Shown here: positions 2,222 to 40,648 of the stretch, piece by piece
Numbering within the stretch: position 1 is the stretch's first letter
Layout: every line of letters begins with the position of its first letter
Assembly: GCA_021790115.1 (NCBI GenBank)
Contig: JAJYIM010000001.1
Span: 23,543 to 87,542 of the forward strand
Origin: Actinomycetes bacterium
GTDB lineage: Bacteria; Actinomycetota; Thermoleophilia; BMS3ABIN01
Reading direction: 5' to 3'
DNA: 64,000 nt
The notes under the pieces: generated by a model
Told to the model about the DNA's origin: nothing
Seen by the model: only the letters and a program-made list of their open reading frames with translations
Databases searched by the model: none
Position numbers and translations under genes: made by a program

Positions 2222-4276
2222 ATGAGGAAAACAAGCAAGCTGTTCCCGAAAAAGCCGCTGCTGCTCGCGGCAGCCGCCGCCGTGGCGGTGATCATCCTGG
2301 CTTTCGTCCCCGCGGTGGCAATGGCAACGTCCTACAGCCAGAGCAGCCAAGTAGCGGTAGTGCCGAGCACGACAAATATAGGTCCAGGCTATACGGGCCA
2401 ACTGCCAACGTCGGGCGGCGGTTTTAACGCTTTTACTTTCTCCAGTCTGCCTGAAGCCAATATTAGCGCCGCCAATTTGGCACCGTATGACACCGTTGTC
2501 CTTTACCAGGATTGCGATCTTGGCGCTAATTTGACGCCATCTCAAAAAAGCGACCTGAACAACTGGGTATCCGCCGGCCACAAGCTGATAATTTATGATT
2601 CTGATTCATGCAACCCGACAGATGGCACGACCCCGGACTGGAGCTGGCTGGCCTTCCCGTTTCAAACCAATAATCCGGGCCAGTTGGGTTCCCACAACGG
2701 CTCCCTGAGCGTGGTGGAAAACGATACTCTCGCCAGCGCCGACCCGCCCTCGGCTTACTATATTGACACGGGCAGCATAACAACCAACACCGACGCCGTC
2801 GGCGACGCGAATGTGATGGTAACCCATGACATGAACTGGTACGGAAATATGTCGGCGGTCAACGCAAACGGGGTGCACGGATGGGTGCATACCTACGCCA
2901 CCCTCGGCAGCGGCCTCGTCATTTACAACGGCCTGGACACAGACTTCATGGATACTGATCCGGGCCTGCAGAAAATCTGGCTGCAGGAGCTGCAGCAGCC
3001 CTGGAACCCGGACGGGCTGCCACACCTAAACTCGGCAGCCGCCAAGAATTACTACTGGACCTGGTACGATAACGTCGGCATGCGCAACTGGGTGCTGATG
3101 GCCAACCCGGCCGGGCGCCCCAACTTGAGCTTCAACCTTACTATTGCCGGCAAGCCATACGGCCTGTCGATGGCCGCGGGCAACGCTCCCGGTGTGGTTC
3201 AGGCGGGCAAGACACTGACAGCCATATATCCCGGCATCATTGGCGGCCCGGTGAAAGTGACATCGAAGACGGGGGACAGCGCCGTCGTCAGCCAGAGGAG
3301 CCTGATGGGCAATTCCTTCGAGGAGGTCCTGGGGACGGACGCCGACACACTCTCGAATCATTTCTTCTGGACCTGGTACGATCAGCAAAGCCCCGGCTTT
3401 ACCAACTGGGTGCTGGTCGCCAACCCATCCGCCACCGAGGCAGTGCATGTGGAGATCTCCATTGCCGGCAAACTGATTTCCCAAAACGATATTGCCCCCG
3501 GCCAGAGGTGGACGCCGACGTTCCCCGGCAAGATTGGCGGCCCGGTGGAAGTGAAGGCTTATCTAAAGGGCGGCACCTGGGCGGGAAATCCGCGTGACGT
3601 AATCGCTTCCCAGCGGGTGCTCTCCAACTTCGGCACGGCCTTTAACGAAGTTCCCGGAATTCCGTCCCGCGAGCTGAAGTCCGACTATCTCTGGACGTGG
3701 TACGACAACGCCTCTCCCGGCGCAACTGACTGGGTGCTGATCGCCAATGCCGGCTTCGATCACAGCGGCAATCCTCAAGGGACAGTGACCACCCATGTCA
3801 AGATAGGAAATACCGTCGTCGGGACGTATCACGTCGGCGCGGGTCAAAGGGTAACTCCCACATTCCCGGGCGTGATGGGCGGGCCTGTGGAAGTCTGGAC
3901 AGACTCTGGCGATGTCATTGCCTCGCAGCGCACGACCTGGGGGCCATCGTTTGAAGAGGTCCCCGGCTACGGCAAGGATGCGCTGGCCAGCGATTACAAC
4001 TGGACCTGGTACGACATGCAGAGCCCTGGCGCGGCAAACTGGATCCTGATTGCAAACCCGAATGGCTCACCCGTCACCTACACGATCAAGATAGGCGGGG
4101 TTGTCCCACCCGGGGGCACGGGCATCATCCCGGCTTATGGCCGGGTAACGCCCACTTTCCCCGGCAAGATGAACGGGCCGGTGGAGGTATCCTCCACGGG
4201 CGGCGTTGTCATGGCCTCCCAGCGGGTTACCTGGAACGGCTACTTCAACGAGGTGCTGGGGACAGTGCTGAACTAG
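2222..4276 (+). CDS. secreted repeat protein with 4-5 copies of a ~100-aa repeat (YxWTWYD...NWVLxANP...PTFPGxMGGPVEV...FNEV)
   Basis: 684-aa ORF with a GGGGAGGAG RBS 8 nt upstream. N-terminal signal peptide MRKTSKLFPKKPLLLAAAAAVAVIILAFVPAVAMA. Four clear tandem ~100-aa repeats, each starting [YF]xWTWYD and ending FNEV[LP]G. No named domain that I recognise. Confidence 0.7.
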   Translation: MRKTSKLFPKKPLLLAAAAAVAVIILAFVPAVAMATSYSQSSQVAVVPSTTNIGPGYTGQLPTSGGGFNAFTFSSLPEANISAANLAPYDTVVLYQDCDLGANLTPSQKSDLNNWVSAGHKLIIYDSDSCNPTDGTTPDWSWLAFPFQTNNPGQLGSHNGSLSVVENDTLASADPPSAYYIDTGSITTNTDAVGDANVMVTHDMNWYGNMSAVNANGVHGWVHTYATLGSGLVIYNGLDTDFMDTDPGLQKIWLQELQQPWNPDGLPHLNSAAAKNYYWTWYDNVGMRNWVLMANPAGRPNLSFNLTIAGKPYGLSMAAGNAPGVVQAGKTLTAIYPGIIGGPVKVTSKTGDSAVVSQRSLMGNSFEEVLGTDADTLSNHFFWTWYDQQSPGFTNWVLVANPSATEAVHVEISIAGKLISQNDIAPGQRWTPTFPGKIGGPVEVKAYLKGGTWAGNPRDVIASQRVLSNFGTAFNEVPGIPSRELKSDYLWTWYDNASPGATDWVLIANAGFDHSGNPQGTVTTHVKIGNTVVGTYHVGAGQRVTPTFPGVMGGPVEVWTDSGDVIASQRTTWGPSFEEVPGYGKDALASDYNWTWYDMQSPGAANWILIANPNGSPVTYTIKIGGVVPPGGTGIIPAYGRVTPTFPGKMNGPVEVSSTGGVVMASQRVTWNGYFNEVLGTVLN

Positions 4277-4440: not shown

Positions 4441-4701
4441 TCAGAATAAATCCGCCCGTGAGATATGGGCGACAATTCGATTGATTTCAACGCGGGAAAA
4501 ATCATTTTTATATAGCCTCAAGAAAATTTTTGTACTCAATTGTGCTTCGTCAAGAGTATGGTATTGCTTTTGTAATCCAACCCGCAGCAGGGCCCTGCCC
4601 GTTTCAAACATGTGACTGGCCATTTGCAAACGTTCTTCCGGGCTGCGCGCGGCAATCATTGCAGCGAACTTTTTTTTCATATCTGGTGCCGTGTCATTCA
4701 T
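4441..4701 (-). CDS. small hypothetical protein (86 aa), downstream partner of a nucleotidyltransferase-like gene
   Basis: Track ORF MNDTAPDMKKKFAAMIAARSPEERLQ...EINRIVAHISRADLF. Overlaps the end of the upstream NTase-like ORF by 8 nt, which suggests translational coupling. No recognisable family. Confidence 0.4.
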   Translation of the reverse strand: MNDTAPDMKKKFAAMIAARSPEERLQMASHMFETGRALLRVGLQKQYHTLDEAQLSTKIFLRLYKNDFSRVEINRIVAHISRADLF

Positions 4702-5245
4702 TCGCTTGCGCTTTCCGGAGGAGATCCATCACACCCAGCTCTTCAGACCATTTATCAAGATAATCATTATCGAGGCGGGCCTGCGCCGCCAGTATCTCTT
4801 GCACGTCCCTTAATTGGAGTTCTGAATTTGAGTCTTTTGCCCAAACAAGTTTTGACAGAATGAGATCTTCCGGAGCGACGATCGAAATCGGCATGCCCGC
4901 AACTTCGACCTTTTGCCTGCGGGAAAATTCCAGAGCCCGATATTTCTCTTTCCCTTTGACAATGAAATCAATTTTGATAACGGATTTGTTGTCGATGATG
5001 TTGAACATGCCCCGTTTCTGCACCGCTTGCCGGACACCGGCTTCGTCAATATAGAAATCATGATGGAATAATTCGATGATCTTCCCAACATCATCAACTG
5101 AAACTTGAATGATCATATCGATGTCCCTGGTCATTCTGGGTGTGGCATAGACGGACAGCGCCATCGAACCAGTTAACATATATTCGATTCCGGCCTTTGT
5201 TAGCCGCGACGATACTTCTTTAATCAGGTCAAGTTCTTCAGTCAT
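4694..5245 (-). CDS. nucleotidyltransferase-fold protein (AbiEii/DUF1814-like GS...DID motif), 183 aa
   Basis: YMLTGSMALSVYATPRMTRDIDMII matches the hGGxAL...R.s.DlD nucleotidyltransferase signature seen in the bona fide AbiEii at 55347 (FLGGTALRFLYSIPRFSEDLDFS). Its ATG overlaps the pdxT stop (ATGA). Confidence 0.5.
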   Translation of the reverse strand: MTEELDLIKEVSSRLTKAGIEYMLTGSMALSVYATPRMTRDIDMIIQVSVDDVGKIIELFHHDFYIDEAGVRQAVQKRGMFNIIDNKSVIKIDFIVKGKEKYRALEFSRRQKVEVAGMPISIVAPEDLILSKLVWAKDSNSELQLRDVQEILAAQARLDNDYLDKWSEELGVMDLLRKAQANE

Positions 5246-10067: not shown

Positions 10068-10160
10068 GCAGCGCCACAAAACCCCAAAACCGGATGATGG
10101 ATATTGGGTTGGTTTTGGGTTATCCAATGTCCAAAATCCAGCATCCAGCATCCGCTTTTC
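10068..10160. repeat. heptamer-repeat intergenic element (family 1) copy
   Basis: The minus strand, directly after the stop of the ASKHA gene, reads TAG-AAAAGCGGATGCTGGATGCTGGATTTTGGACATTGGATAACCCAAAACCAACCC... Confidence 0.55.
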
Positions 10161-11407
10161 TATATCTCCATCAGGCGGATAAACTCATCCTGAAACACCT
10201 TGTTTAAAGGCAGGGGGATGTGATGGATTTTGGCCCGCACTTCCTCAAGGTCAAGGCCGGCGCGGCGCTTCTGCGTCAGCATCAGGACGGCGCCCTGGCA
10301 GGCCGCGTCGGCAGCCACCTCGATGCGGTCGTCGGGCAGGTCAGGAAACATCTTCAGTAGGCGCGCATTATCGAGGTTGATATAACTTCCAAACGTGCCG
10401 GTAATCAGCATCCGTCCCAGCTCCTTCGCCCCCAGCTTCTTTTGTAACACCGAGATGGCGGCGTGAACCGAGGCTTTCACCAGCTGAAAGGAACGGATGT
10501 CGCGCTGGCCAACCGTGACCGGGTCTTCCCCGCCGGCAATCACCACCGGACCTTCTTTCAGCAGCCGGCCGCTGTTATCCACCCAGCCATGCCTCCTCAT
10601 CTCTGCAATAATGTCAATGAGGCCTGAGCCGCAGATGCCCTTTGCCTCACCGCCGCCCACGACCTCGTAAACAAACTTTTCCCCGTCAAGCCGGGCCTGG
10701 CAAACGGCGCCAGCCGTCGCCGAGAGCCCGAAAGACATGTGCGCGTCCTCGTAGGCAGGGCCGGCGGGAGTAGAGGCCACCAGTATCTTGCCGCGGCTGC
10801 CCAGCGCGATCTCGCAATTAGTGCCGACGTCCACCGCCAGCTCTGTTTCATCGCTGTGCGCCATCCCCACCATCAGAATATCGGCCAGAGCATCAGAGCC
10901 CACAAACCCAAAAATGGGGCGGGGCACCAGCAGGCTTGCCTTGGGGGCGGCAATGCCGAGCTTGCCAGCGGGGCCGAAGTAGTCCCGGGCGCCCTTAAGA
11001 TTGTAAGGCGAGCCGCAAAGCGGCGCCGGGTCCAGGTCGAGCAAGAAAGCAAACATGGCAGAGTTTCCCACGGCGGCAATATTACAAATATCCGCAACGT
11101 CAATGCCGGCTGCCCGGCTGAGCTGATCTAATGAATCGTTGATAGCATCGATGAGCTGGCGGTGGAGGCGCGTCCTGATGGCAGGCTGCTCGGCGGCCAG
11201 TCCCACGCGGCTGGCGATGTCGGCGCCGTATTCCTGCTGGGGATTAGCGAGCACCCGGGTGCCGAGTGCGCTGCCGTCAGCCAGCCTGACAAGGCGCGAC
11301 CAGATGCTGGAAGTGCCGACATCGATAGCGGCTCCGTAAGCGGAAGCGCCAGCGCCCGCGTCGGGAGTTTTGTTGTTATTTGTGGCATTGGAATCGTGAC
11401 CGTTCAT
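10160..11407 (-). CDS. ASKHA-fold ATPase, DUF4445/RACo C-terminal-like (candidate corrinoid reductive activase)
   Basis: AIDVGTSS (phosphate-1), DVGTNCEIALG (phosphate-2) and ICGSGLIDIIAEM resemble the ASKHA domain of RACo-type activators. ATG at 11407 is internal to the track ORF (codon 68); the upstream 67 codons are unlike any family. No ferredoxin domain. Confidence 0.55.
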   Translation of the reverse strand: MNGHDSNATNNNKTPDAGAGASAYGAAIDVGTSSIWSRLVRLADGSALGTRVLANPQQEYGADIASRVGLAAEQPAIRTRLHRQLIDAINDSLDQLSRAAGIDVADICNIAAVGNSAMFAFLLDLDPAPLCGSPYNLKGARDYFGPAGKLGIAAPKASLLVPRPIFGFVGSDALADILMVGMAHSDETELAVDVGTNCEIALGSRGKILVASTPAGPAYEDAHMSFGLSATAGAVCQARLDGEKFVYEVVGGGEAKGICGSGLIDIIAEMRRHGWVDNSGRLLKEGPVVIAGGEDPVTVGQRDIRSFQLVKASVHAAISVLQKKLGAKELGRMLITGTFGSYINLDNARLLKMFPDLPDDRIEVAADAACQGAVLMLTQKRRAGLDLEEVRAKIHHIPLPLNKVFQDEFIRLMEI

Positions 11408-11477
11408 GAAAACCGGGAAAACGTGGGGAAAAACATCCGCAAAAAACCGGGCCGGCCGGCACACCCTGCGCCTTGTC

Positions 11478-11499
11478 CCAATATACATATTGGGACAGG
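11478..11499. promoter_or_regulatory. perfect 10-bp inverted repeat GTCCCAATAT-AC-ATATTGGGAC (candidate operator)
   Basis: Seen directly in the 415-nt divergent intergenic region between the ASKHA gene (start 11407) and the B12-rSAM gene (start 11822). Confidence 0.4.
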
Positions 11500-11821
11500 C
11501 TCTTAGCGTAGCAGAAATGTGGCAGGCAAACAATCGGGACCGGAGCGCCGGTTTTTGTGGCTGCCGGCGCCCGGAAAAACCGGGCGCTGCCTGACAGCGT
11601 GGAAACAATTACAGCCCTTTGCTACACTTAAATTGAAAAGCGGTGGGAATTTGGTGTGGGGAACTGCAACGTCTCTGGAGGAGCTTTCACTTCCTCTTGC
11701 TTCACTCCTGCGGCATGCTAAGAGCCTGTCCCAGAAAGCTGTTCGTATCGAGGCCGGCCGCAGCAGAATAAGCTTACCGGGATAAGCTCCATGCCCGCAT
11801 CCTGATGAGGAGAAGGCCAGT

Positions 11822-13288
11822 TTGAAATCCATGGTTATCCTGCCGTCCTGGAAGCCCGATGATATTTATCCCTCCCGGGTCGCCAGGTCGGCAGTCAGCT
11901 ACCAGCATCCGCTGGGGCTGCTTTACATTGCTACCTGCATCCAGGCCGCCGGCCATGAAGTCAGGCTGGTGGACGGCGCTTTCTGGACCAATGCGGAGAT
12001 CCTCGGCCGGGTGCGCCGGTTTGAGCCCCGGTTCATTGGCCTTTCCGCCAACGCTTCCATGTGGAGCAAAGCAGTGAAAACCGCCGTTGATATCAAAGCC
12101 ATCAACCCCTCCATTCATGTGACTGCCGCCGGCCCCTACCCGTCTGCCGTGGAGGAGCAGTGCCTGGCGGATTGCCCTGCTCTGGATTCAATAGTCATCG
12201 GCGAGGGCGAAGAGACCGTCCCGGAAATGATTGACAAGTTGACGAATGGCCATAACCTTGAAGGGGTGGCGGGGACCGCCTTCCGCGCCCGGGACGGCGC
12301 CATTGTCAAAAACGATCCCCGGCCGCTGATCGAGGACCTGGACGCCATCCCCATCCCGCGGCGGGAGTTGCTGGGGGATTTTGACAAATACGAGTCGCCG
12401 CCGGGCAGCTACAAGCGCAAGCCGATCGCCATCGTCATGACCTCGCGCGGCTGCAAGGCCCGCTGTATTTACTGTTTCCAGATGAAGGGCGAACACCGTA
12501 TCCGCTTCCGCAGCGTTGATAACGTGGTCGAGGAAGTAGAGGAGCTGATAAACCGCTACGGCTTCCGGGAGATCAGGTTCCTGGATGAGACTTTCACAGC
12601 CGACCGGGAGCGGGCGATGGAGCTGATGCGCCGTTTCCGGGAGCTTCGGCTCGATTTCAGTTTTTATGTATCGTCCCGCGTGAACACTGTTGACTTTGAG
12701 CTGCTCCGTGAGATGAAGAAAGCCGGCTGCTGGGCCATCCTTTTTGGCGCTGAAAGCGGCGTCCAGAAAAACCTGAACACGCTGCGCAAGGGCGTGACGC
12801 TGGACCAGACGCGGGCCGCGGTGGCGGCGGCAAAAAAGGCGGGGCTCAAGGTCTATACGCCCTTTATCATCGGCATCCCCGACGAGACCTATGACGAAGC
12901 TTTAAAAACGGTCGAGTTCGCCATCGAGCTTAATCCGCATTACGCCAACTTTCACACTATGGCGCCATTCCCCGGGACCGAGCTTTACGATAATATTGAC
13001 AAATACGGCACAATGTCAGCAAATACCGATGACTACACATTCGAAGGTGGAGCGTTCGAGCCCTACTCGATGACGCGCGCGCAGATCGAAGACGTGCGCA
13101 CCATCGCCTTCCGCCGCTTTTATTCACGCCCCGGATTTATCGTCAGGCGGCTGCTGGGCGTGCGCAGCATCTATGATTTCAGGACGGTAGTCAAGGGCGC
13201 AGCCAGCTTCTTCTGGCTTTGGGTCAAGCGGGACAGCCTCTCGATGAAGCCGGTCGAACAAGACCATAAAAATCAGCCGGCGGGATGA
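11822..13288 (+). CDS. B12-binding domain radical SAM protein (class B)
   Basis: N-terminal Rossmann-like B12-binding region (LLYIATCIQAAGHEVRLVDG...), then CKARCIYC (CxxxCxxC) and an rSAM core. 488 aa. Confidence 0.8.
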   Translation: MKSMVILPSWKPDDIYPSRVARSAVSYQHPLGLLYIATCIQAAGHEVRLVDGAFWTNAEILGRVRRFEPRFIGLSANASMWSKAVKTAVDIKAINPSIHVTAAGPYPSAVEEQCLADCPALDSIVIGEGEETVPEMIDKLTNGHNLEGVAGTAFRARDGAIVKNDPRPLIEDLDAIPIPRRELLGDFDKYESPPGSYKRKPIAIVMTSRGCKARCIYCFQMKGEHRIRFRSVDNVVEEVEELINRYGFREIRFLDETFTADRERAMELMRRFRELRLDFSFYVSSRVNTVDFELLREMKKAGCWAILFGAESGVQKNLNTLRKGVTLDQTRAAVAAAKKAGLKVYTPFIIGIPDETYDEALKTVEFAIELNPHYANFHTMAPFPGTELYDNIDKYGTMSANTDDYTFEGGAFEPYSMTRAQIEDVRTIAFRRFYSRPGFIVRRLLGVRSIYDFRTVVKGAASFFWLWVKRDSLSMKPVEQDHKNQPAG

Positions 13289-13297
13289 GCGCGCGCG

Positions 13298-14335
13298 ATG
13301 AGCAAACCTGATTCCTCCTCAACGATGGTCTCGGTGGTTATCCCTGTCTACAACAAGGCAGAAACCATCGGCCCTGTCCTCGAAGCAGTCTACAACTCAA
13401 GCTACCGGAATTTTGAGGTGATTGTGGTCAACGACTGCTCCACCGACAACTGCATGGAAGTGCTGCAGGGCTTCACCGGCAAGTACCCCCACCGGCTTGT
13501 CGCCTTAAAAGAAAACATGGGGGTATCCAAGGCGCGCAATACCGGAGCCCAAAAGGCAAAGGGTGAGATCATCCTTTTTATCGACGCTGATTGCATTATC
13601 ATGCCCGACACAATGGCGCGCTGTGTTGAAAGGCTGGGCCAAGGCGGCAGCTGCGTTGGCGGCGCCTACACCAAGGACGCCTGGGACAAGGACTTCTTCA
13701 GCAACTTTCAGTCCCTTTACATCAACTATGTTGAAACCAAAAATGAGCACCCTGACTACATCGCCACCCACTGCATGGCGATCCGCAAGGATCTTTTCCA
13801 GCAATTTGGCGGTTTTGTCGAGAATTCATTTATCGGCCACCAGGCCAGCGTTGAGGATGTCGAGTTCTCGCACCGGCTGGTCGGAGCCGGCCACCAACTG
13901 CTGCGTCCCGCCGACATCCAGGTCCGGCACATGTTTGGCTTCAACTCTGCCAAGTCCATCAGGAATGCCATTAAGAAAAGCAAGTATTGGACCATGTACT
14001 CGTTAAAGAACCGCGATGTGATGCAGGACTCCGGCGCCGCCTCGCATGAGCTGAAAGCCAACGTCGCCACGCAGGTGTTAAATCTGGTCCTGGTGATGCT
14101 GGCGCTGGCGTTTCGGTTTTGGTGGCTGCTTTTGCCCATTCCCTTCTTCTATGGCGTCAACGTCGCCGTCAGCTTCCGGCTGTTTAGGTTGATCAAGCGG
14201 GAGCGCGGCTGGTGGTTTCTGGTCCGCTCGCTGGGCTACTATCAGTTCGTCTATCCCTTTGCCGTCGCTTACGGATCATTTGTTGGCACGCTAAAATATG
14301 TGTGGGAAGTGAAGATTCTGCATCGGTACGCTTGA
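13298..14335 (+). CDS. family 2 glycosyltransferase with C-terminal TM helices (polyprenyl-phosphate sugar synthase-like)
   Basis: VSVVIPVYNKAETIGPVLEAV...VIVVNDCSTDN...IDAD is a GT2 DxD. The C-terminal 90 aa contain 2-3 hydrophobic helices, as in DPM1/GtrB/ArnC-type enzymes. Confidence 0.75.
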   Translation: MSKPDSSSTMVSVVIPVYNKAETIGPVLEAVYNSSYRNFEVIVVNDCSTDNCMEVLQGFTGKYPHRLVALKENMGVSKARNTGAQKAKGEIILFIDADCIIMPDTMARCVERLGQGGSCVGGAYTKDAWDKDFFSNFQSLYINYVETKNEHPDYIATHCMAIRKDLFQQFGGFVENSFIGHQASVEDVEFSHRLVGAGHQLLRPADIQVRHMFGFNSAKSIRNAIKKSKYWTMYSLKNRDVMQDSGAASHELKANVATQVLNLVLVMLALAFRFWWLLLPIPFFYGVNVAVSFRLFRLIKRERGWWFLVRSLGYYQFVYPFAVAYGSFVGTLKYVWEVKILHRYA

Positions 14336-14339
14336 ACAC

Positions 14340-14435
14340 CGGTTTCGGGTTGCGGGTTTCCCTGTTAACTAATACTCAGCCCGGTTCAAAACCTAAACCT
14401 GGTGTGTGAAAACCCGAAACCCGCAACCCGCAACT
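14340..14435. repeat. heptamer-repeat hairpin (GGTTTCG GGTTGCG GGTTTCC ... AAACCCG AAACCCG CAACCCG)
   Basis: Tandem 7-nt units, with an inverted copy 45 nt downstream, between the GT2 stop and the rSAM start. Confidence 0.5.
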
Positions 14436-14453
14436 TTGTATTAAGTTTTAATA

Positions 14454-15539
14454 ATGTACTCACCAATAAAATACATCCCCGCCGTATTCCTGAAGAACAG
14501 GCTGCTGCAGTTTACGTTCTTCATCACCTCGCGCTGCAACGCGCGCTGCCCATTTTGTTTTTACTGGCAGGACCGGCATAGCCGCCGCCGTGAGCTTGAC
14601 CTGGACGAAATTGAGAAAACAAGCCGCTCGCTGGGCGGGCTGCTGTGGCTGCTTTTCTCCGGCGGGGAGGTATTCCTCCGCCAGGACCTGGCTGACATCG
14701 TCGCTGCCTTTTACCGCAATAACCGTCCGGTAATCATCACGCTGCCCACCAATGGGCTGGCGCCGGACCTGATCATTCCCCAGGCTGAAGAAATCGCCGC
14801 CGGCTCGCCCAACAGCGCCGTTGTGATTAAAGTGTCGCTCGACGGCGTCGGCGCGGACCACGACCGCATCCGCAACACCCCCGGCAATTTTGACAAAGCG
14901 ATGGAAACCTGGGAGGGGCTGCGGCCGCTGCGGCGGCGGCACCAAAACCTGCAGATAGGCATCAACACTGTCTTCATGCGGGAAAATCAGGACAACTTGG
15001 ACGAAATAATTGATTTTGTCAACGAGCTGCCGGACTGCGAGACCCACACCATCTCCCTGATTCGCGGCAACCCGGCCGGCGATAACGGCAAAGGCATTGA
15101 CCTGGGAAAGTATCTGCGAACAGTAGAGCGGCTGGAGCAGGACTTGAAAGGCCACCGGCCCAAGATGTACCATTTCACTCTGGCGCGGTTAAAATCCGCC
15201 CAGGATTTGATCCAACGGCAACTGATTTACGAGACCGTCCGCCAGGGAAGGCGGCAGCTTCCCTGCTATGCCGGCCGCATCACAGCCGTGATGAATGAGG
15301 TGGGGGACGTCTTTCCGTGTGAGATTCTCGACTGCCCGATGGGAAACGTGCGCGATAGCGGCTATGATTTAATGAAAGTGTTTAGCTCTGCGGCGGCCGA
15401 CTCCGTCAGGGCGAAAATCAACAGTTCCAGATGCTACTGTTCACACGAGTGCTATTTCGTCACAAACATTCTTTTCAATCCAATGATGTATGGACGGCTG
15501 ATCAAACAGTTCGCGGCGCTGAGGCAGCCGGGCCGGTAA
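14454..15539 (+). CDS. radical SAM/SPASM domain protein
   Basis: CNARCPFC (CxxxCxxC) near the N-terminus and a GGE motif. The C-terminal Cys cluster (LPCYAG...VFPCE...CPMGN...SSRCYCSHECYF) is SPASM/twitch-like. 361 aa. Confidence 0.8.
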   Translation: MYSPIKYIPAVFLKNRLLQFTFFITSRCNARCPFCFYWQDRHSRRRELDLDEIEKTSRSLGGLLWLLFSGGEVFLRQDLADIVAAFYRNNRPVIITLPTNGLAPDLIIPQAEEIAAGSPNSAVVIKVSLDGVGADHDRIRNTPGNFDKAMETWEGLRPLRRRHQNLQIGINTVFMRENQDNLDEIIDFVNELPDCETHTISLIRGNPAGDNGKGIDLGKYLRTVERLEQDLKGHRPKMYHFTLARLKSAQDLIQRQLIYETVRQGRRQLPCYAGRITAVMNEVGDVFPCEILDCPMGNVRDSGYDLMKVFSSAAADSVRAKINSSRCYCSHECYFVTNILFNPMMYGRLIKQFAALRQPGR

Positions 15540-17221
15540 GCACGGAGGAGCCGCCTGCGCCCCGCGTTATCCAGACCGGCGGCCCTTCCCGCAAAGCGCT
15601 TGCCGCCAGCCTCGCCGCCATCTTTCTGCTCGTGCTGGCTGTCGCCATTCCCTTTTTGGGGCAGGCGCTCCACATCGACGACGCGATTTTCTGGGACTTT
15701 GCCAGCAATAACATTTCTCACCCATTTCAGCAGCATCTTTCCAATTACCCGCTGATGGGCCAGGAAGTGGGGGCGTTCCGGGACACGCACCCTCCTTTTG
15801 ATGAGCTTTACATTTCCGTCATTATGCTGGCAGCCGGCACCACCGCGCCGGAGGCTTTTTTCCATGCCGGATTTATAATTTTCCCGCTGATCGCGGGCGT
15901 TTCCATGTTCTTTCTTGCCCGCCGCTTTACCAAAAGTGCCCTGCTGGCAGCCCTGTTGCTGCTGTCCACGCCGGCAGTGATGGTGCTTTCCCATACCTTA
16001 ATGGGAGATCTGCCAATGACTGCCTTTTGGCTGGCGGCGACCGCCGCCTACATCTACGGGGCTGACCGGGGCAGCCGGCCGCTGCTTGCCCTGTCAAGCT
16101 TACTGATTACCCTGGCGGTTTTTACCGGCTACCAGGCTCTGGCCCTGATCTTGCTGCTGCCGGCATACTGGTGGCTAAAAGCAGGCCGGTTGAGATGGAT
16201 GGCAGTCCTGCCTGTTCTTTTGCCGGCGCTTGCTTTTGCTGCCTACATATGGTTTAACCTGGCCAAGTACGGCGCGCTGCCGCGTTTCTCGCATGCGCAG
16301 GGACTTAGCGTTCAGGAAAACAACTTGATCTCGCGCTTCCAGGGGATGTTCCTGGAGTTGGGCGGCGCATCGGTCTTTCCGCCTTTTTTGGCGGCTGGTT
16401 TTATGCTGCGCCGCAAACGGTACCTGGCGCTGCCGGCCGTGGCGGCCGGCGCAGCGCTGCTTGGCTGGCGCCAGCTCTCGCCGGGTTACCCGCCTGCCAG
16501 CGCCGTCCTGCTGGCTATATTTTTCTTCGCGGGCGCCTGCATGATAACCGGGATAGTTTCCGAGGGGCTGATCCAGATAGCAAACCGGTTCAGGCGCCTA
16601 CCGCTGGACCGTGACTTTTTGTTCCTCGCCCTCTGGCTGGGCTCGATTCTGGCGGCCGTCGTCGGCCTTTTGCCGGATGCCACCGTCCGGTACTACCTTC
16701 CCGTCTTCGCCCCGCTGATTATATTGATGTTCCGGGAGGCAGATGCTGCCCTTTCTTCGCGGCGGCTGCTGCAGGGGCTGGCGGTCGCCGCAATCGGGAC
16801 GTCATTTATCACGGGCCTATGGCTGTCGATGGCCGATTACCAGCTGGCCCAGGCATATAAGGATTTTGTCCTGTCGGTCCAGTCCCGTTATCATCCCGGA
16901 GGCGCCGTCTGGTTTGTGGGCGAGTGGGGCTTTCGCCACTATATGGAACTCGAGGGGTACCGGTACCTTACTTCAGACAGCACCGAGCCTCGAAAAGGCG
17001 ATCTGATAATCGAACCCAGTTACATGCAGCGGCCCGTGGCGCCTTCGCTGTGCAAACGCATGCAGCTGGTGGATGCTCCGGCGGCCACATGGGCAGTGCC
17101 GGTGCGGGTCATGAGCGTGGCGGCGGACGCCGGCTTTTACGGCACTTACTGGGGGCGGCTGCCCTTTACCATCACCACGCAGCCGCTGGAGCGTTTTGAC
17201 GTATACGCAGTAAACAGTTAG
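15431..17221 (+). CDS. polytopic membrane protein, GT-C (ArnT/PMT-like, GT39/83) glycosyltransferase candidate; start uncertain
   Basis: More than 10 predicted TM helices, with a first-loop HIDDAIFWDF motif reminiscent of GT-C DxD/ExD enzymes. ATG 15431 overlaps the preceding gene by 109 nt. A GGAGGAG lies at 15544-15550, but no canonical start follows it. Confidence 0.5.
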   Translation: MLLFTRVLFRHKHSFQSNDVWTADQTVRGAEAAGPVSTEEPPAPRVIQTGGPSRKALAASLAAIFLLVLAVAIPFLGQALHIDDAIFWDFASNNISHPFQQHLSNYPLMGQEVGAFRDTHPPFDELYISVIMLAAGTTAPEAFFHAGFIIFPLIAGVSMFFLARRFTKSALLAALLLLSTPAVMVLSHTLMGDLPMTAFWLAATAAYIYGADRGSRPLLALSSLLITLAVFTGYQALALILLLPAYWWLKAGRLRWMAVLPVLLPALAFAAYIWFNLAKYGALPRFSHAQGLSVQENNLISRFQGMFLELGGASVFPPFLAAGFMLRRKRYLALPAVAAGAALLGWRQLSPGYPPASAVLLAIFFFAGACMITGIVSEGLIQIANRFRRLPLDRDFLFLALWLGSILAAVVGLLPDATVRYYLPVFAPLIILMFREADAALSSRRLLQGLAVAAIGTSFITGLWLSMADYQLAQAYKDFVLSVQSRYHPGGAVWFVGEWGFRHYMELEGYRYLTSDSTEPRKGDLIIEPSYMQRPVAPSLCKRMQLVDAPAATWAVPVRVMSVAADAGFYGTYWGRLPFTITTQPLERFDVYAVNS

Positions 17222-17232
17222 CGCCCTGTTGC

Positions 17233-17251: not shown

Positions 17252-17273
17252 CTACCAGCCTGTGCCTACCGCA

Positions 17274-27311: not shown

Positions 27312-27338
27312 GCCAGCCTGCAACTTTCCTTCCCGCCG

Positions 27339-36480: not shown

Positions 36481-36481
36481 C

Positions 36482-38680
36482 CTAGTTTAGCACCGTCCCC
36501 AGCACCTCATTAAAGTAGCCGTTGTAAAGGACGCGCTGGGAAGCAATAACGTTGCCGCTGGCGCTTACCTCGACCGGGCCGCCCATCTTGCCGGAGAAGG
36601 TGGGAGTTGCGTTCTTTCCCGGGGCGATTGTGTAGGTGCCTATGGCAGTGCTGCCCAGCTTGATAGTTGCGGTAACTGCAAACGGGTTCGGGTTGGCGAT
36701 AAGCACCCAGTTTTGCATGCCTGGGCTTTGCTGGTCATACCAGGTCCAGTTGTAATCTGAGGTTAGCGCTGAGTAGCCGCCGTCAGTGGAGGCCGCCAGG
36801 CCCGGCACCTCTTCAAAGGAGGGGCCGAAGATCGAGCGCTGGGTGGCGATCACCTTGGCGCCCCCGTCGGTCCAGACTTCCACCGGGCCGCCCATCACGC
36901 CCGGGAAGGTGGGCGTGACATGCTGGCCGGGGCCGATCCGGTAGCTGCCGCGGAGAGCGCCGGCAATCTTGATATGGGCTGTTACCGCGCTTGCATTTGG
37001 ATTGGCGACAAGCACCCAGTCGGTGGCGCCGGCAGAGGCGTTGTCGTACCAGGTCCAGAGGTAATGGTCGGAAAGCTCCGCCGCCGGGATGCCGGGCACC
37101 TCGTTAAAGGCGGAGCCGTAATTGGAGAGGACCCGCTGGGAGGCAAGCACGTCCCCGCCGCTGGCGATAACCTCAACCGGGCCGCCCATCTTGCCGGAGA
37201 AGGTGGGAGTCACTTTTGCTCCCGGGGCGATGGGGCCGCTCCAGACAGGGACGCCGGCAATCTTGACCATGGCCGTTACCGGGCCCTGGGGATTGCCGTT
37301 ATGATCCTGGCCGGGGTTGGCCACAAGCACCCAGTTGGTCATCCCCGGGCTTTGCTGGTCGTACCAGGTCCAGTAGAAATGGCTGGAGAGCCGGCCCGCA
37401 TCGGTGCCGGGCACCTCTTCCATGGAGCTTCCCCCCTTGGGCCAGAGGCTGCGCTGGCTGAGGATGCCGCCGCCGGGCGCCCAGGTGACGGCTTTTACCG
37501 GGCCGTTCATGACCCCCGGAAAGACGGGAGTGATGGAGCGCCCCGGAGCGACAACGCCATTGTTATAGCCGGCGAGGCTCATGGCCCTGCCGCCAATGGA
37601 AAGCTGGGAGGTAACCAGGCTGCCCGGGGCCGAAGCCGGATTGGCGATCAGCACCCAGTTGCTGCCGCCGACATCATCGTACCAGGTCCAGTAAGAAGTG
37701 TTCGTGGTGGCAAGAATGGTGCCGCCATCACCCGCCACCCAGCCATGGCTCTGGTCCACGAAGCTGACGCCTTCAAATTTGTCAGCTGAGCCGCTCGTCT
37801 GGGGGCTCCAGGTAGCGCCGCCGTTTGTGGTGGCAAGAATGGTGCCGCCGCCCGTGCCGCCGCCCATCGCCACCCCGCCCCCAACTGCCCAGCCGTGGTT
37901 TTGGTCAACGAAGCTGACGCCTACAAGCGTATTGGCCGTGCCACTGGTCTGGGGACTCCAGGTAGCGCCGCCGTTTGTGGTGGCAAGAATGGCGCCGTTC
38001 GTACCCACGGCCCAGCCGTGGTTTTGGTCTGTAAAGCTAACGTCAGCAAGCCAGTTTGTCGTGCCGCTTGCCTGGGAGGTCCAGTGGGCGCCGCCGTCGG
38101 TAGTCGCAAGAATGGTGCCTCCGTAGCCCACCGCCCAGCCGTGGTTTTGGTCGAGGAAGAAGACGCGGTAAAGATCATTGGTCGTGCCGCTCGTCTGGAG
38201 GCTCCACCCGGCGCCGCCGTTGTTAGTTACAAGAATGGTGCCGTTAGCACCCACTGCCCAGCCGTGGTTTTGGTCCACGAAGCTGACGCCGTAAAGCAAA
38301 TTGGTGGTGCCGGTTGCCGCAGAGCTCCACCCGGCGCCGCCGTTGTTAGTTACAAGAATGGTGCCGTTAGCACCCACTGCCCAGCCGTGGTTTTGGTTCA
38401 GGAAAAAGACGCGGTAAAGATCATTGGTCGTGCCACTCGTCTGGGGGCTCCAGGTAGCGCCGCCGTTTGTGGTGGCAAGAATGGTGCCGCCGGGCCCCAC
38501 CGCCCAGCCGTGGTTCTGATCCACGAAGCTGATAGAATAAAGATCGCTCGTGGTGCCACTGGTCTGGGGACTCCAGGTAGCCGCCATTGACATTGAAGGA
38601 AAAACTGCCAGCGCCAGAAATGCTGCCGCCATTGCCGGTAGTAAAAACAACATCCGCGGCGTAAAGACTCTCTTCATCAC
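36482..38680 (-). CDS. secreted protein: Ycf48/BNR-like beta-propeller (7 repeats) fused to 4 copies of the ~100-aa WTWYD repeat
   Basis: Signal peptide MMKRVFTPRMLFLLPAMAAAFLALAVFPSMSMA. Seven repeats of the form ATWSPQTSGTTxDLYxVxFxDQNHGWAVGxxGTILxTxNGG (PSII stability/assembly factor-like propeller), then YWTWYD...NWVLIANP...FEEVPG repeats. The C-terminus ends NGYFNEVLGTVLN, identical to the 2222 protein. Confidence 0.7.
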   Translation of the reverse strand: MMKRVFTPRMLFLLPAMAAAFLALAVFPSMSMAATWSPQTSGTTSDLYSISFVDQNHGWAVGPGGTILATTNGGATWSPQTSGTTNDLYRVFFLNQNHGWAVGANGTILVTNNGGAGWSSAATGTTNLLYGVSFVDQNHGWAVGANGTILVTNNGGAGWSLQTSGTTNDLYRVFFLDQNHGWAVGYGGTILATTDGGAHWTSQASGTTNWLADVSFTDQNHGWAVGTNGAILATTNGGATWSPQTSGTANTLVGVSFVDQNHGWAVGGGVAMGGGTGGGTILATTNGGATWSPQTSGSADKFEGVSFVDQSHGWVAGDGGTILATTNTSYWTWYDDVGGSNWVLIANPASAPGSLVTSQLSIGGRAMSLAGYNNGVVAPGRSITPVFPGVMNGPVKAVTWAPGGGILSQRSLWPKGGSSMEEVPGTDAGRLSSHFYWTWYDQQSPGMTNWVLVANPGQDHNGNPQGPVTAMVKIAGVPVWSGPIAPGAKVTPTFSGKMGGPVEVIASGGDVLASQRVLSNYGSAFNEVPGIPAAELSDHYLWTWYDNASAGATDWVLVANPNASAVTAHIKIAGALRGSYRIGPGQHVTPTFPGVMGGPVEVWTDGGAKVIATQRSIFGPSFEEVPGLAASTDGGYSALTSDYNWTWYDQQSPGMQNWVLIANPNPFAVTATIKLGSTAIGTYTIAPGKNATPTFSGKMGGPVEVSASGNVIASQRVLYNGYFNEVLGTVLN

Positions 38681-38929: not shown

Positions 38930-40648
38930 CTAGGGCTTGGCGGGGTAGTAGTAAGTGGCACCGTTGCTATCCTGGCAATGGGCGTAAACAGAAGTGTGGA
39001 AAGACTGCACGCTTTGCGGCACATAGTACTGTATCATAAAGGCGTCGCCACCGGACGGCGGCGTATCGATATTGCCGAGCGCTTTTGGCAGCGCAGTCAA
39101 GGCCGTTACGCCGTTAGTGGCGTCAACCCGGTCAATCGATGCCGACAGCGCCTCTTCCTGCCCCTTGTTCATGATCCTGAAATCAACCGACAGCTTACGG
39201 CTGGCGTAGTCAGCCGTGCTGGCCCAGTAAGCGTTTGTCTCAAGCAATTGCATGTCGGGCATCGGCGCCGCCAGTTGGCCCGTGGCAAAGCGGGGCAAAC
39301 CCACAAGCTCGTTGAAACTGGTGCTCATGTACAGCACCCTCTGGCTCGCCAGCAGCACGCCGTTCTGGCTCATGACGTTCACGGGGCCACTCATTACACC
39401 CGGGAACTGGGGCGTTACCCGGCCGCCGCCGCTAATTGCCGTTGCATAAACCGGGCTCGCGGCCGCACCCATGTATACGTTTACTGCCGCGCCGCCCGAT
39501 GAGGGGTCGGGATTGGAAATGAGCTGCCAGTCTTTCATGCCGGGGCTCTGCATGTCGTACCAGCCAAAGTCCATTTCCGTGTCCATGCCGCCCGGCGGCG
39601 TCCCCTGCAACTCTTCAAACGAGTTCTTGTACAACATCCGCTGGCTGACAATCAGTTTCCCGCCGGCGTTGCATCCGGAGGTGCAGACCACCCGCACCGG
39701 CCCGTCCATCAGGCCCGCATAAGTCGGAGTGGCAATCCGGTGCGGGCCAAGCGAGTATGTTCCCCGCGGATTGGGATTGGAACCGATATAGACGCTGGCC
39801 TGCACTGGCGTATTGTTGGGATTGGCAACCAGGACCCAGTTTCCGGCGCTGAAATCCGAGGTCATATCGTACCAGTCGAAATAATAAACGCTGTCCAGAT
39901 GGCTTTCTGGGAAACCCATCGCTTCATTGAAGCTGTTTTTGTAAAGAACGCGCTGGGAGACAAGCAGCTTTTGGCCGCCGGAGCTGACGACATGGACCGG
40001 CCCTCCCATCAGGCCCGGGAACTCGGGGGTCACGAACTGCCCCGGCGCGATATTAAAAGAGCGGCTGGGGACCGTGCTGCTGCCAATGTAAACATTGACT
40101 GCCGCAGCCTGGCTGTCCTCGTTGGCGATCAGGATCCAGTTGCCATTCATGCTGTCCTGAGTGGTAAAGTCGTACCAAGTGAAATAATAGGAGGAGTCGA
40201 GGTTGTCCTGCATGATGGCCGGGACCTCGTTGAAATAGCCATTGTGGAGAACCCGCTGGGTGACAACCAGCGCCTGGCCGCCGGTAGAAATTACTTTAAC
40301 GGGGCCGCCCATTGTGTTGGGCCAGCTGATAACCTGGCGCCCCTGGGCGCCCACGGTGAATGTCTCCCGCGGAGCCGCCTGGTTGCCAAAAAATACCTGC
40401 ACATTGGCGGAGCTGTTTTCCAGATTGCCGATAACGATCCAGTCGCCCTGCATTCCGTCCACCGGCGTAGAGTCATACCAGGTGAAGTAATAAGTCTTGG
40501 GGGCCGGCGTGATCTGCACCGCGCCGGCGCTGGCGGCGGCAAGAGCTACCAGCAAAACTGAAAAAACTGTTAATAACAATAAATTTAAAGTCAGCGTCCG
40601 GGCTCTAACAAGTTTCTTCAAGACAGATACCTCCGTTTTTTTACACAC
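38930..40648 (-). CDS. secreted protein with 4-5 copies of the YYFTWYD...NWVLVANP...FNEV repeat plus a unique C-terminal domain
   Basis: Signal/TM VRARTLTLNLLLLTVFSVLLVALAAASAGA. Repeats such as YYFTWYDSTPVDGMQGDWIVIGN...MGGPVKVIS...VVTQRVLHNGYFNEVPA. Third paralog of the 2222 and 36482 proteins. Confidence 0.7.
   Translation of the reverse strand: MCKKTEVSVLKKLVRARTLTLNLLLLTVFSVLLVALAAASAGAVQITPAPKTYYFTWYDSTPVDGMQGDWIVIGNLENSSANVQVFFGNQAAPRETFTVGAQGRQVISWPNTMGGPVKVISTGGQALVVTQRVLHNGYFNEVPAIMQDNLDSSYYFTWYDFTTQDSMNGNWILIANEDSQAAAVNVYIGSSTVPSRSFNIAPGQFVTPEFPGLMGGPVHVVSSGGQKLLVSQRVLYKNSFNEAMGFPESHLDSVYYFDWYDMTSDFSAGNWVLVANPNNTPVQASVYIGSNPNPRGTYSLGPHRIATPTYAGLMDGPVRVVCTSGCNAGGKLIVSQRMLYKNSFEELQGTPPGGMDTEMDFGWYDMQSPGMKDWQLISNPDPSSGGAAVNVYMGAAASPVYATAISGGGRVTPQFPGVMSGPVNVMSQNGVLLASQRVLYMSTSFNELVGLPRFATGQLAAPMPDMQLLETNAYWASTADYASRKLSVDFRIMNKGQEEALSASIDRVDATNGVTALTALPKALGNIDTPPSGGDAFMIQYYVPQSVQSFHTSVYAHCQDSNGATYYYPAKP

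What the first reader, a model, noticed from the sequence alone, without database searches (positions are those of the whole stretch)
2222..4276. Novel ~100-aa secreted repeat (YxWTWYD...NWVLxANP...PTFPGxMGGPVEV...FNEV), first paralog
The 684-aa signal-peptide protein carries four tandem ~100-aa repeats with strikingly conserved anchors. These are WTWYD at the start, NW[VI]L[IV]AN[PA], a central TPTFPG[KV]MGGPVEV, and ASQRV...FNEV at the end. I cannot match these to any named repeat (not BNR, PKD, Big, SLH or fibronectin). Two further paralogs lie at 36482 and 38930, giving three in 64 kb. This suggests a lineage-specific cell-surface or adhesin repeat domain.
Basis: seen in the sequence. Interest (0 to 1): 0.6.

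Follow-up and report, generated by a model that had tools for sequence, protein, structure and literature searches.

The report
Undescribed four-repeat cell-envelope anchoring module
Three secreted proteins in this window share a rigid block of four ~100-residue beta-sandwich repeats that matches no named domain; an uncultured group of Actinobacteria fuses it to many unrelated extracellular enzymes, especially cell-wall-cutting ones, most likely to hold them on the cell surface.

Summary
ORFs A (2222..4276 +), B (36482..38680 -) and C (38930..40648 -) each have a signal peptide and exactly four abutting ~100-aa repeats. That makes 12 copies, not ~13, and the window holds no others.

No Pfam, NCBIfam or PDB sequence profile matches the repeat, even when consensus repeats are used. 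AlphaFold2 models the four repeats as one rigid all-beta unit (pLDDT 97, pTM 0.93). Foldseek finds no solved analogue for one repeat or for the module.

An exhaustive profile search finds ~1,430 cluster representatives. Every hit that carries a source name, apart from one partial 'Pseudomonadota' record, is a Thermoleophilia, Gaiellales or Actinomycetota MAG.

Repeat number is quantised at 4, or 8 as two blocks. Repeat positions 1-4 are each orthologous across proteins. The module sits at the extreme C-terminus or directly after the signal peptide.

Its partners span more than 30 Pfam families, including every major peptidoglycan-hydrolase class, proteases, propellers and cytochrome c.

So this is not a variable adhesin stalk. 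It is best read as a new non-covalent cell-envelope anchoring module, analogous to SLH or CWB2 triplets. The ligand is unknown and the function is inferred, not shown.

The parts
2222..4276 (+). Gene A: 684-aa secreted protein = signal peptide + unknown 241-aa domain + four-repeat module
   Evidence: ORF. An identical protein is in public data (P0001; contig k141_1216499). RBS GGAGG upstream.
2222..2326 (+). A signal peptide (aa 1-35, ...AVAMA|TS)
   Evidence: Basic N-terminus plus hydrophobic core; highest 19-residue Kyte-Doolittle hydropathy average 2.78 (window starting at aa 14). The cleavage site was read from the sequence and is an inference.
2327..3049 (+). A N-terminal passenger domain (aa 36-276), unknown family
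   Evidence: No Pfam, NCBIfam or PDB hit. Shared only with L001 and L002.
3050..3361 (+). A repeat 1 (aa 277-380), the degenerate position-1 type
3362..3685 (+). A repeat 2 (aa 381-488)
3686..3994 (+). A repeat 3 (aa 489-591); modelled alone with pLDDT 96.4
3995..4273 (+). A repeat 4 (aa 592-684); ends at the protein C-terminus ...GYFNEVLGTVLN
36482..38680 (-). Gene B: 732-aa secreted protein = signal peptide + Ycf48/BNR-like beta-propeller + four-repeat module
   Evidence: PSII_BNR E=2.6e-37 on the N-terminal part. Public protein P0030, 731 aa.
37697..38581 (-). B passenger: BNR/Ycf48-like propeller (aa ~34-328)
36485..37696 (-). B four-repeat module (aa 329-732): B1 37379-37696, B2 37064-37378, B3 36755-37063, B4 36485-36754
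38930..40648 (-). Gene C: 572-aa ORF (public gene aa, implying a start at 40621) = signal peptide + four-repeat module of the 'YYFTWYD' flavour + 116-aa C-terminal domain
39281..40492 (-). C four-repeat module (aa 53-456): C1 40190-40492, C2 39887-40189, C3 39575-39886, C4 39281-39574
38933..39280 (-). C C-terminal domain (aa 457-572), unknown family; the non-module part of C has pI 8.5
   Evidence: No Pfam or NCBIfam hit. Conserved in L012, L018 and L030. pI.

Best explanation
The four repeats form one indivisible, rigid, all-beta module of about 400 aa. The module acts as a non-covalent cell-envelope retention (anchoring or targeting) domain for exported proteins in an uncultured Thermoleophilia-related lineage of Actinomycetota. 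After Sec export and signal-peptide cleavage, the module is proposed to bind a component of the cell wall, most likely a wall glycopolymer or peptidoglycan. This would hold the attached passenger domain at the surface of a cell that is probably monoderm. Passengers include peptidoglycan hydrolases, proteases, beta-propellers, beta-helices, CAP domains and cytochrome c. In the window, A, B and C are three such surface proteins. Shown: the repeat anatomy, the fixed number of four, positional orthology, terminal placement, predicted rigidity, promiscuous fusion, lineage restriction, and the absence of any named family. Inferred: the binding function itself, the ligand, and the monoderm envelope.
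For: (1) All three window proteins have signal peptides and no other membrane or wall anchor. By a crude hydrophobicity test, 92 of 120 homologs have a hydrophobic N-terminal segment.
(2) Copy number is quantised. It is 4 in 120/120 and 112/113 homologs, and 4 or 8 in the exhaustive search. Eight-repeat proteins are two blocks of four, separated by a linker or spacer domain in most cases.
(3) Each repeat's nearest relative in another protein occupies the same position in 470/480 cases, so the tetrad is the ancestral unit.
(4) Repeats abut without linkers. The AF2 model of the tetrad has pLDDT 97 and pTM 0.93.
(5) The module ends at the last residue in about 100/120 A-type homologs, or follows the signal peptide directly. 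For C-type homologs the split is 76 C-terminal and 33 N-terminal.
(6) Partners span more than 30 Pfam families. They include every main class of peptidoglycan hydrolase or remodelling enzyme: M23, SLT, CHAP, SpoIID and C92; Amidase_2 plus SpoIID flanking two modules in one 1,770-aa protein; and glucosaminidase in about 29 of 120 C-type hits. They also include S8, sedolisin, caspase, M14 and M10 peptidases, CAP domains and cytochrome c.
(7) None of the roughly 233 listed homologs carries an accession I recognise as a known wall-binding domain (LysM, SLH, SH3b, CWB2, PG_binding_1, SPOR) in its precomputed Pfam list. Recognising those accessions rests on my own knowledge.
(8) There are many paralogs per genome: 3 in this 64-kb window, and 2-3 adjacent module genes in L007, L008, L022 and L025.
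(9) From my own knowledge, this is the signature of SLH triplets (Bacillus anthracis S-layer and BSL proteins), CWB2 triplets (Clostridioides difficile Cwp family; Bacillus subtilis LytB and LytC) and choline-binding or GW repeats.
Against: There is no direct evidence of binding, and the ligand is unknown. The module is acidic (median pI 4.7 over 120 homologs; 5.7, 5.7 and 4.7 in A, B and C). To my knowledge, many modules that bind anionic wall polymers are basic. No phage lysin carries the module (IMG/VR pattern scan; INPHARED tblastn), so the classic corroboration from endolysin wall-binding domains is missing. That may only reflect poor sampling of phages of this lineage. One 8-repeat member also has a PEP-CTERM tail, which hints at use in a different envelope type. 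The coordinates of the model could not be inspected, so no binding groove or pseudo-symmetry was verified. The monoderm status of these MAG organisms is assumed from their phylum.
Confidence: 0.55

Rival explanations
1. The module is a protein-protein docking or self-assembly module. It would plug passenger proteins into a proteinaceous S-layer, sheath or scaffold (cohesin-dockerin-like), or itself form the lattice, without binding a wall glycan.
For: The same architecture data support this (fixed tetrad, terminal position, promiscuous fusion). The acidic pI fits protein-protein or cation-mediated lattice contacts. Small proteins that are essentially module-only exist (P0011 at 489 aa, P0055 at 424 aa). 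There are weak sequence and structure echoes of self-assembling Ena spore-appendage subunits (Pfam Enas E=0.011-0.013; Foldseek Ena3A prob 0.98, TM 0.41).
Against: No candidate receptor or scaffold protein was identified. The Ena similarities are below significance. The strong bias toward peptidoglycan hydrolases is more typical of wall-binding modules.
Confidence: 0.17
2. The module is a carbohydrate-binding or adhesion module aimed at external substrates or other cells (CBM-like or lectin-like). This would be an adhesin function in the first reader's sense.
For: The fold is a beta-sandwich, rich in conserved Trp and Tyr (W5, Y6, W16). Some partners are glycoside hydrolases (GH17; GH26). There are weak Foldseek echoes of FimH/FmlH lectin domains and of a pectate-lyase CBM.
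Against: Most partners have no polysaccharide substrate outside the cell's own wall: cytochrome c, CAP, proteases, propellers, and M23, CHAP, SLT, amidase and SpoIID. A fixed tetrad with positional orthology is unlike CBMs, which occur singly or in variable numbers. The lectin and CBM matches have TM<=0.4 and E>0.08.
Confidence: 0.12
3. The repeat is only a very divergent member of an already named beta-sandwich family (PLipase_C_C PF05506, DUF5719 PF18986, or a generic E-set/Ig-like domain), so it is not a new domain family.
For: There are recurrent weak hits. For PLipase_C_C, whole-protein sums of 25.8-26.7 bits exceed the 24.4 cutoff in P0124, P0189 and P0262, and window protein C scores 17.0 bits. 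For DUF5719, 4 of 81 single repeats hit (best E=6e-4), and P0049 scores 26.7 bits against a 26.2 cutoff.
Against: In every hit that exceeds a family's cutoff, no single stretch passes ('stretches 0'). The matches cover only about 40-60 residues. Window proteins A and B have no hit at E<=1. Nine consensus repeats give nothing better than E=0.039. Two different families are hit about equally, as expected for generic beta-sandwich composition. Both families are themselves functionally uncharacterised, so this would not explain function.
Confidence: 0.15
4. The module is a C-terminal secretion or sorting signal (T9SS-CTD-like, or a substrate tag for a dedicated export or attachment machine) that is removed or covalently processed.
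For: The extreme C-terminal placement comes with a conserved terminal motif...NGYFNEVLGTVL[ND]-COOH.
Against: The module is about 400 aa, far larger than known sorting domains. In 33 of 113 C-type proteins and about 10% of A-type proteins it is N-terminal or internal, including window protein C. No conserved neighbouring machinery was seen in 38 loci.
Confidence: 0.04
5. The repeats form a variable-length adhesin stalk or spacer, as originally suggested.
For: The repeats are tandem beta-sandwiches on secreted proteins. Foldseek local matches are to MG and FnIII arrays.
Against: Copy number is fixed at 4 or 8. Positions are orthologous. The predicted tetrad is rigid and compact, with pTM 0.93. 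Global TM to arrays of tandem sandwich domains is <=0.19.
Confidence: 0.02

Closest known systems
SLH (S-layer homology) domain triplets, PF00395 (e.g. Bacillus anthracis Sap, EA1 and BSL proteins)
   Same: Both are a fixed number of tandem repeats forming one compact unit at the N- or C-terminus of secreted proteins. Both are fused to many unrelated passengers, including peptidoglycan hydrolases and proteases, with many paralogs per genome. (Knowledge of SLH is my own; the features of this module come.)
   Different: This module has four ~100-aa all-beta repeats, against three ~55-aa helical repeats in SLH. There is no sequence similarity. The ligand is unknown, whereas SLH binds pyruvylated secondary cell-wall polymer. 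This module is acidic.
CWB2 (cell-wall binding repeat 2, PF04122) triplets: Clostridioides difficile Cwp family, Bacillus subtilis LytB and LytC
   Same: Both are terminal tandem-repeat anchors shared by a large paralogous family of surface proteins. The same enzyme classes are anchored: amidase and SpoIID-like LytB there, and Amidase_2 plus SpoIID on one protein here.
   Different: To my knowledge CWB2 is an alpha/beta fold in threes. This module is all-beta in fours, and there is no Pfam hit.
Bacterial phospholipase C C-terminal domain (PLipase_C_C, PF05506)
   Same: It is a small beta-sandwich domain occurring in tandem at a protein's C-terminus. It gives the best recurrent weak sequence similarity, to the first half of the repeat (profile positions ~7-55 of 80).
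   Different: In every hit above the cutoff no single stretch passes, and only summed scores exceed it. Window proteins score 17 bits or less against 24.4. The repeat number, partner proteins and lineage all differ.
DUF5719 (PF18986), an uncharacterised family
   Same: There is marginal similarity of the repeat's N-terminal half to profile positions ~53-122 of 319. The 319-position profile is about three repeat lengths long.
   Different: Only 4 of 81 repeats hit, the best single protein is 0.5 bit above the cutoff, and no window protein hits. No function is known and no literature was found.
FirrV-1-C4 (UniProt Q6XLX4), Feldmannia irregularis virus a, BFVD predicted structure
   Same: It is the only structure found with a similar global arrangement of the whole tetrad: TMq 0.60, E=3.6e-9, 430 aligned columns.
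   Different: Identity is 12%. It is a protein of a eukaryotic (brown-alga) virus with unknown function, and it is a predicted model. No sequence-level link was established and no literature was found.
Tandem Ig-like/FnIII/MG adhesin arrays (Big, PKD, FN3, complement MG domains)
   Same: Individual repeats are ~100-aa beta-sandwiches, and there are local Foldseek matches.
   Different: There are no profile hits. Copy number is fixed and the tetrad is rigid. Global TM is <=0.19.

Membership tests
SLH domain (PF00395) | Match to the SLH profile; three ~55-aa repeats | tested here: not met
   No Pfam hit at E<=1 on A, B, C or on consensus repeats. The repeats here are ~100 aa, all-beta, and come in fours.
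CWB2 / Cell wall binding repeat 2 (PF04122) | Match to the CW_binding_2 profile; three alpha/beta repeats | tested here: not met
   No Pfam hit. The predicted secondary structure has no helices of 4 or more residues.
PLipase_C_C (PF05506) | Score at or above the gathering cutoff (24.4 bits), with a domain-level match | tested here: not met
   Window protein C scores 17.0 bits; A and B score nothing. The best consensus repeat scores 15.3 bits. Some homologs reach 25.8-26.7 bits only as sums, with 0 passing stretches.
DUF5719 (PF18986) | Score at or above the gathering cutoff (26.2 bits) over most of the 319-position profile | tested here: inconclusive
   P0049 scores 26.7 bits and P0070 25.2 bits, covering only profile positions 59-122. 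Four of 81 single repeats hit at E<=1. There is no hit on window proteins or on consensus repeats. A profile-profile test could not be run.
Ig-like adhesin repeats (Big_x, PKD, FN3, BNR) | Profile match; variable number of beads-on-a-string copies | tested here: not met
   There is no profile match in the repeat region. Copy number is fixed at 4 or 8. The tetrad is rigid.
T9SS-type C-terminal sorting domain | A single ~80-100-aa domain, obligatorily at the extreme C-terminus | tested here: not met
   The unit is four repeats (~400 aa). It is N-terminal or internal in a substantial minority of proteins, including window protein C.
Functional class: non-covalent cell-wall anchoring modules (SLH, CWB2, CBD, GW, LysM type) | Located on Sec-exported proteins | tested here: met
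   Signal peptides are present in A, B and C, and 92/120 homologs have a hydrophobic N-terminus.
Functional class: non-covalent cell-wall anchoring modules | Same module fused to many unrelated passenger domains, prominently peptidoglycan hydrolases; multiple paralogs per genome | tested here: met
   Partners span more than 30 Pfam families, including M23, SLT, CHAP, SpoIID, C92, Amidase_2 and glucosaminidase. There are 3 paralogs in this window, and module genes are adjacent in several loci.
Functional class: non-covalent cell-wall anchoring modules | Demonstrated binding to peptidoglycan or a secondary wall polymer | not testable with these tools
   This needs biochemistry, such as a pull-down of the recombinant tetrad with sacculi or wall polymers.
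Functional class: non-covalent cell-wall anchoring modules | Module re-used by phage endolysins of the same hosts | tested here: not met
   No relatives were found in IMG/VR or INPHARED phages. Phages of this lineage may simply be unsampled.

The most novel reading that the evidence does not exclude
The tetrad is a structurally new, fourth kind of Gram-positive wall-anchoring system, alongside SLH, CWB2 and choline/GW-type repeats. It would organise essentially the whole surface proteome, including the autolysin set and extracytoplasmic cytochromes, of an uncultured, subsurface Thermoleophilia-related class. It would recognise a so far unknown wall polymer, in two flavours (WTWYD-type and YYFTWYD-type). 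Its four-sandwich architecture would be shared only with an orphan protein of a brown-alga giant virus.
Probability: 0.4. Interest if true: 0.7.

Novelty: new variant of a known kind. Interest (0 to 1): 0.55.

Why it matters
If the inference holds, this module marks the surface-exposed proteome of a widespread but uncultured actinobacterial lineage found in groundwater, sediment and hot-spring MAGs. Any protein carrying it could then be annotated as cell-surface-retained. That would turn hundreds of 'hypothetical proteins' into interpretable surface enzymes. It would also point to an unknown wall polymer as ligand. The module would be a new candidate scaffold for surface display and a new domain family for Pfam or InterPro. 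Structurally, a rigid tetrad of beta-sandwiches with no solved analogue is a good target for experimental structure determination. It is not a new principle of biology: terminal tandem-repeat anchors are well known, so the surprise to a specialist would be moderate.

Tried and rejected
(1) Named-family assignment was tried and failed. Pfam and NCBIfam were run on the full proteins, on 81 single repeats, on divergent members and on nine consensus repeats. Only sub-threshold PLipase_C_C, DUF5719, Enas, LEA_2 and DUF1425 noise appeared.
(2) A PDB sequence-profile search found only a chance NDK hit at E=2.1.
(3) Foldseek against PDB gave TM<=0.19 for the tetrad and a best E of 0.037 with TM<=0.41 for a single repeat. 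TRAP, Ena, PLAT and FimH matches were rejected as insignificant.
(5) The phage and plasmid searches found nothing: IMG/VR pattern scan and INPHARED and PLSDB tblastn.
(6) The first genome-contig scan, with the 12-repeat alignment, failed for lack of a conserved stretch. It was repeated with a single protein.
(7) Literature searches found nothing relevant. The terms were Thermoleophilia with cell wall binding, S-layer or peptidoglycan hydrolase; DUF5719; FirrV-1-C4; the motif strings; and Geothermincolia/Humimicrobiia.
(8) Functional linkage to the neighbouring WecA/TagO-type GT4 gene was considered. The adjacency is conserved in four MAGs, but these are close relatives (GT4 73-85% identical), so it is treated as synteny by descent and not as evidence.
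(9) The adhesin-stalk and sorting-signal readings were rejected on copy-number and placement data.
(10) Model coordinates are not exposed to the scripting tool. Pseudo-symmetry, inter-repeat strand exchange and surface conservation could therefore not be analysed.
Full report
OBSERVATION. The ORF at 2222..4276 (+) encodes a 684-aa protein, here called A. It has a GGAGG ribosome-binding site 8 nt upstream of the ATG and a classical signal peptide. It has a 241-aa region with no Pfam, NCBIfam or PDB match. Four directly abutting repeats of 93-108 aa fill aa 277-684 and end at the last residue. Two further genes have the same four repeats. B (36482..38680, -, 732 aa) has them behind a Ycf48/BNR-type beta-propeller (PSII_BNR E=2.6e-37). 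C (38930..40648, -, 572 aa; public gene aa) has them directly after its signal peptide, followed by an unknown 116-aa C-terminal domain.

Repeat 1 is a degenerate version. There are 12 copies, not ~13. An HMM built from them finds no other copy in any of the six frames of the window. The copies are 29-66% identical to the reference copy, with 11 invariant columns.

NOT A NAMED DOMAIN. Pfam and NCBIfam give no hit on A or B. On C, Pfam gives one sub-threshold hit inside a repeat (PLipase_C_C, 17.0 bits, E 0.012), and the only NCBIfam match (class F sortase, 19.9 bits against a 166 cutoff) lies over the signal-peptide region. Scanning 81 individual repeats gives only scattered weak hits, with DUF5719 in 4 of 81 at best E=6e-4. 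Divergent family members give summed scores that just exceed the PLipase_C_C cutoff, but with no single passing stretch. P0049 scores 26.7 bits against a 26.2 cutoff for DUF5719, over about 40 residues. Nine position-specific consensus repeats, normally the most sensitive single-sequence probes, give nothing better than E=0.039. A profile of the 12 repeats finds nothing real in the PDB sequence set. The weak similarities to two uncharacterised beta-sandwich families remain an open lead about remote homology.

STRUCTURE. With a 108-sequence alignment, AlphaFold2 models the tetrad of protein A (408 aa) with mean pLDDT 97.0 and pTM 0.93. The model is all-beta, with seven to eight strands per repeat and only a short helical turn between repeats. 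A pTM of 0.93 over four repeats means their mutual arrangement is predicted confidently, so this is a rigid unit and not a flexible string. A single repeat modelled alone has pLDDT 96.4.

FAMILY ANATOMY. A search with protein A returns 511 or more relatives. The best 120 all match over the ~60% of A that is the tetrad, not the N-terminal domain. All 120 contain exactly four repeats. In about 100 the tetrad ends at the last residue, and in most of the rest it directly follows the signal peptide. A search with protein C defines a second flavour (YYFTWYD...) with the same rule: 112 of 113 have four repeats, 76 tetrads are C-terminal, 33 N-terminal and 4 internal.

An exhaustive HMMER search with a repeat profile, against 1.84 billion cluster representatives, finds 1,430 proteins at E<=1e-3, 936 at <=1e-10 and 573 at <=1e-30. 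Of the best 150, 138 show 4 matched stretches and 9 show 8; single proteins show 3, 5 and 7. In the eight-repeat proteins the two blocks of four are in most cases separated by a linker or by other domains.

Each repeat's nearest relative in a different protein sits at the same ordinal position in 470 of 480 cases. Repeat 1 is the most divergent, at ~37-38% identity to the other positions against ~47-55% among positions 2-4. Of the 101 additional representatives, 75 classify as 1-2-3-4. The tetrad is therefore an old, indivisible evolutionary and structural unit.

PARTNERS. Precomputed and re-verified Pfam assignments show the tetrad fused to a very wide range of extracytoplasmic domains.
- Peptidoglycan hydrolases or remodelling enzymes of every major class: M23, SLT, CHAP, SpoIID and C92 amidase, and glucosaminidase in about 29 of 120 C-type hits.
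- A 1,770-aa protein with the order Amidase_2 - Big_13 - tetrad - PKD - tetrad - SpoIID.
- Proteases: S8, sedolisin, caspase, M14, M10 and M6.
- CAP domains.
- BNR/Ycf48, TolB/PD40 and FG-GAP propellers, NosD-like beta-helices, Ig-like domains and the glycoside hydrolases GH17 and GH26.
- Cytochrome c.

None of the roughly 233 listed proteins carries an accession I recognise as LysM, SLH, SH3b, CWB2, PG_binding_1 or SPOR. That recognition rests on my own knowledge.

DISTRIBUTION AND CONTEXT. All source names attached to hits are MAGs labelled Thermoleophilia, Gaiellales, Actinobacteria or Actinomycetota, apart from one partial 'Pseudomonadota' record. All 38 loci found in a one-genome-per-species collection are such MAGs. 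The window itself is identical to part of an ENA metagenome contig of 118,695 bp. No copy occurs in IMG/VR, INPHARED phages or PLSDB plasmids.

The three window genes lie among housekeeping genes: YebC, PdxT, dCMP deaminase, a WecA/TagO-type GT4, ATP synthase, SHMT and RpiB. The order C-like, B-like, dCMP deaminase, GT4 recurs in four related MAGs. These are close relatives, so I give this no functional weight. Module genes are often adjacent to each other (L007, L008, L022, L025).

INTERPRETATION. The combination of features is the signature of non-covalent cell-wall anchoring modules of Gram-positive bacteria. The features are a Sec signal, a fixed-number tandem repeat forming one compact unit, strict terminal placement at either end, promiscuous fusion with a strong peptidoglycan-hydrolase component, many paralogs per genome, and the absence of other anchors. 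Examples from my own knowledge are SLH triplets, CWB2 triplets (C. difficile Cwp proteins; B. subtilis LytB and LytC, which anchor the same SpoIID-like and amidase enzyme classes), choline-binding repeats and GW repeats.

I therefore propose that the tetrad retains exported proteins on the cell envelope by binding a wall component (confidence ~0.55). The main rival is docking to a proteinaceous surface layer or scaffold (~0.17). The binding itself, the ligand and the envelope type are inferences. Points against are the module's acidity (median pI 4.7), the lack of phage-lysin copies, and one PEP-CTERM-bearing member. The adhesin-stalk reading is rejected on copy-number, orthology and rigidity data. 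A sorting-signal reading is rejected on size and on the frequent N-terminal placement.

NOVELTY AND SCORE. Functionally this is a known kind of device, a terminal repeat anchor. The domain family, its all-beta four-repeat architecture and its lineage are undescribed in Pfam (2025 copy), NCBIfam (June 2026), the PDB and the searchable literature. I rate it a new variant of a known kind with interest 0.55. It is solid, sizeable (~1,400 clusters at 50% identity) and directly testable, but not paradigm-changing, and its function is still inferential.

Noticed in passing
BFVD model Q6XLX4 (FirrV-1-C4, Feldmannia irregularis virus a) vs window 3050-4273: This is the only global structural match of the four-repeat module (TMq 0.60, E=3.6e-9, 12% identity). 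It is an orphan protein of a brown-alga giant virus. No literature was found and its sequence could not be fetched.
   Followed up: partly
window 2327-3049 (+), protein A aa 36-276: The passenger domain of protein A has no Pfam, NCBIfam or PDB match. It is found only in two close relatives, L001 and L002. Its function is unknown.
   Followed up: partly
window 38933-39280 (-), protein C aa 457-572: This is a 116-aa C-terminal domain with no family match; the non-module part of C has pI 8.5. It is conserved in L012, L018 and L030. About 30 proteins of 508-602 aa resemble C over ≥89% of its length. C may be a conserved ortholog, not one of the shuffled fusions.
   Followed up: partly
window 34563-40648 (-); loci L012, L013, L018, L021: The gene order C-like, B-like (BNR propeller + module), dCMP deaminase, WecA/TagO-type GT4 (PF00953) is conserved in four other MAGs. 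A GT4 of this type initiates wall-polymer synthesis in other Gram-positives, so a link to the module's ligand is conceivable. The genomes are closely related, so the adjacency may only reflect common descent.
   Followed up: partly
window 4441-4701 (-) and 4694-5245 (-): A small Rv0078B-like gene (PF18993) overlaps by 8 nt with a DUF6036/DUF2204/AbiEii-type nucleotidyltransferase. This looks like a toxin-antitoxin pair, immediately downstream of gene A.
   Followed up: no
window 15431-17221 (+) and 45798-47537 (-): These two long ORFs (596 and 579 aa) have no Pfam or NCBIfam match. The second overlaps by 4 nt with, and lies upstream of, prfA (47534-48604), so it is probably a real gene.
   Followed up: no
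window 10160-18716: A RACo-type corrinoid activase (10160-11608, -) lies near two B12-binding radical SAM genes (11822-13288 +, 17274-18716 -). This suggests a corrinoid-dependent metabolic cluster.
   Followed up: no
protein P0123 (JGI metagenome, 1194 aa): This protein has an M23 peptidase, eight repeats and a C-terminal PEP-CTERM motif. That is a module-bearing protein with an exosortase-type sorting signal, which hints that the module also occurs outside the Thermoleophilia-like lineage or in a different envelope type.
   Followed up: no
window 26946-28817 (+): This 623-aa ORF has no Pfam hit. It overlaps a 487-aa ORF on the opposite strand (27339-28802), next to the ATP synthase alpha-subunit gene (29875-31455). 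It is probably a shadow ORF and not a gene.
   Followed up: no
window 51654-51727 (+) and 63332-63406 (+): Two tRNA genes are the only Rfam matches at gathering threshold in the window.
   Followed up: no
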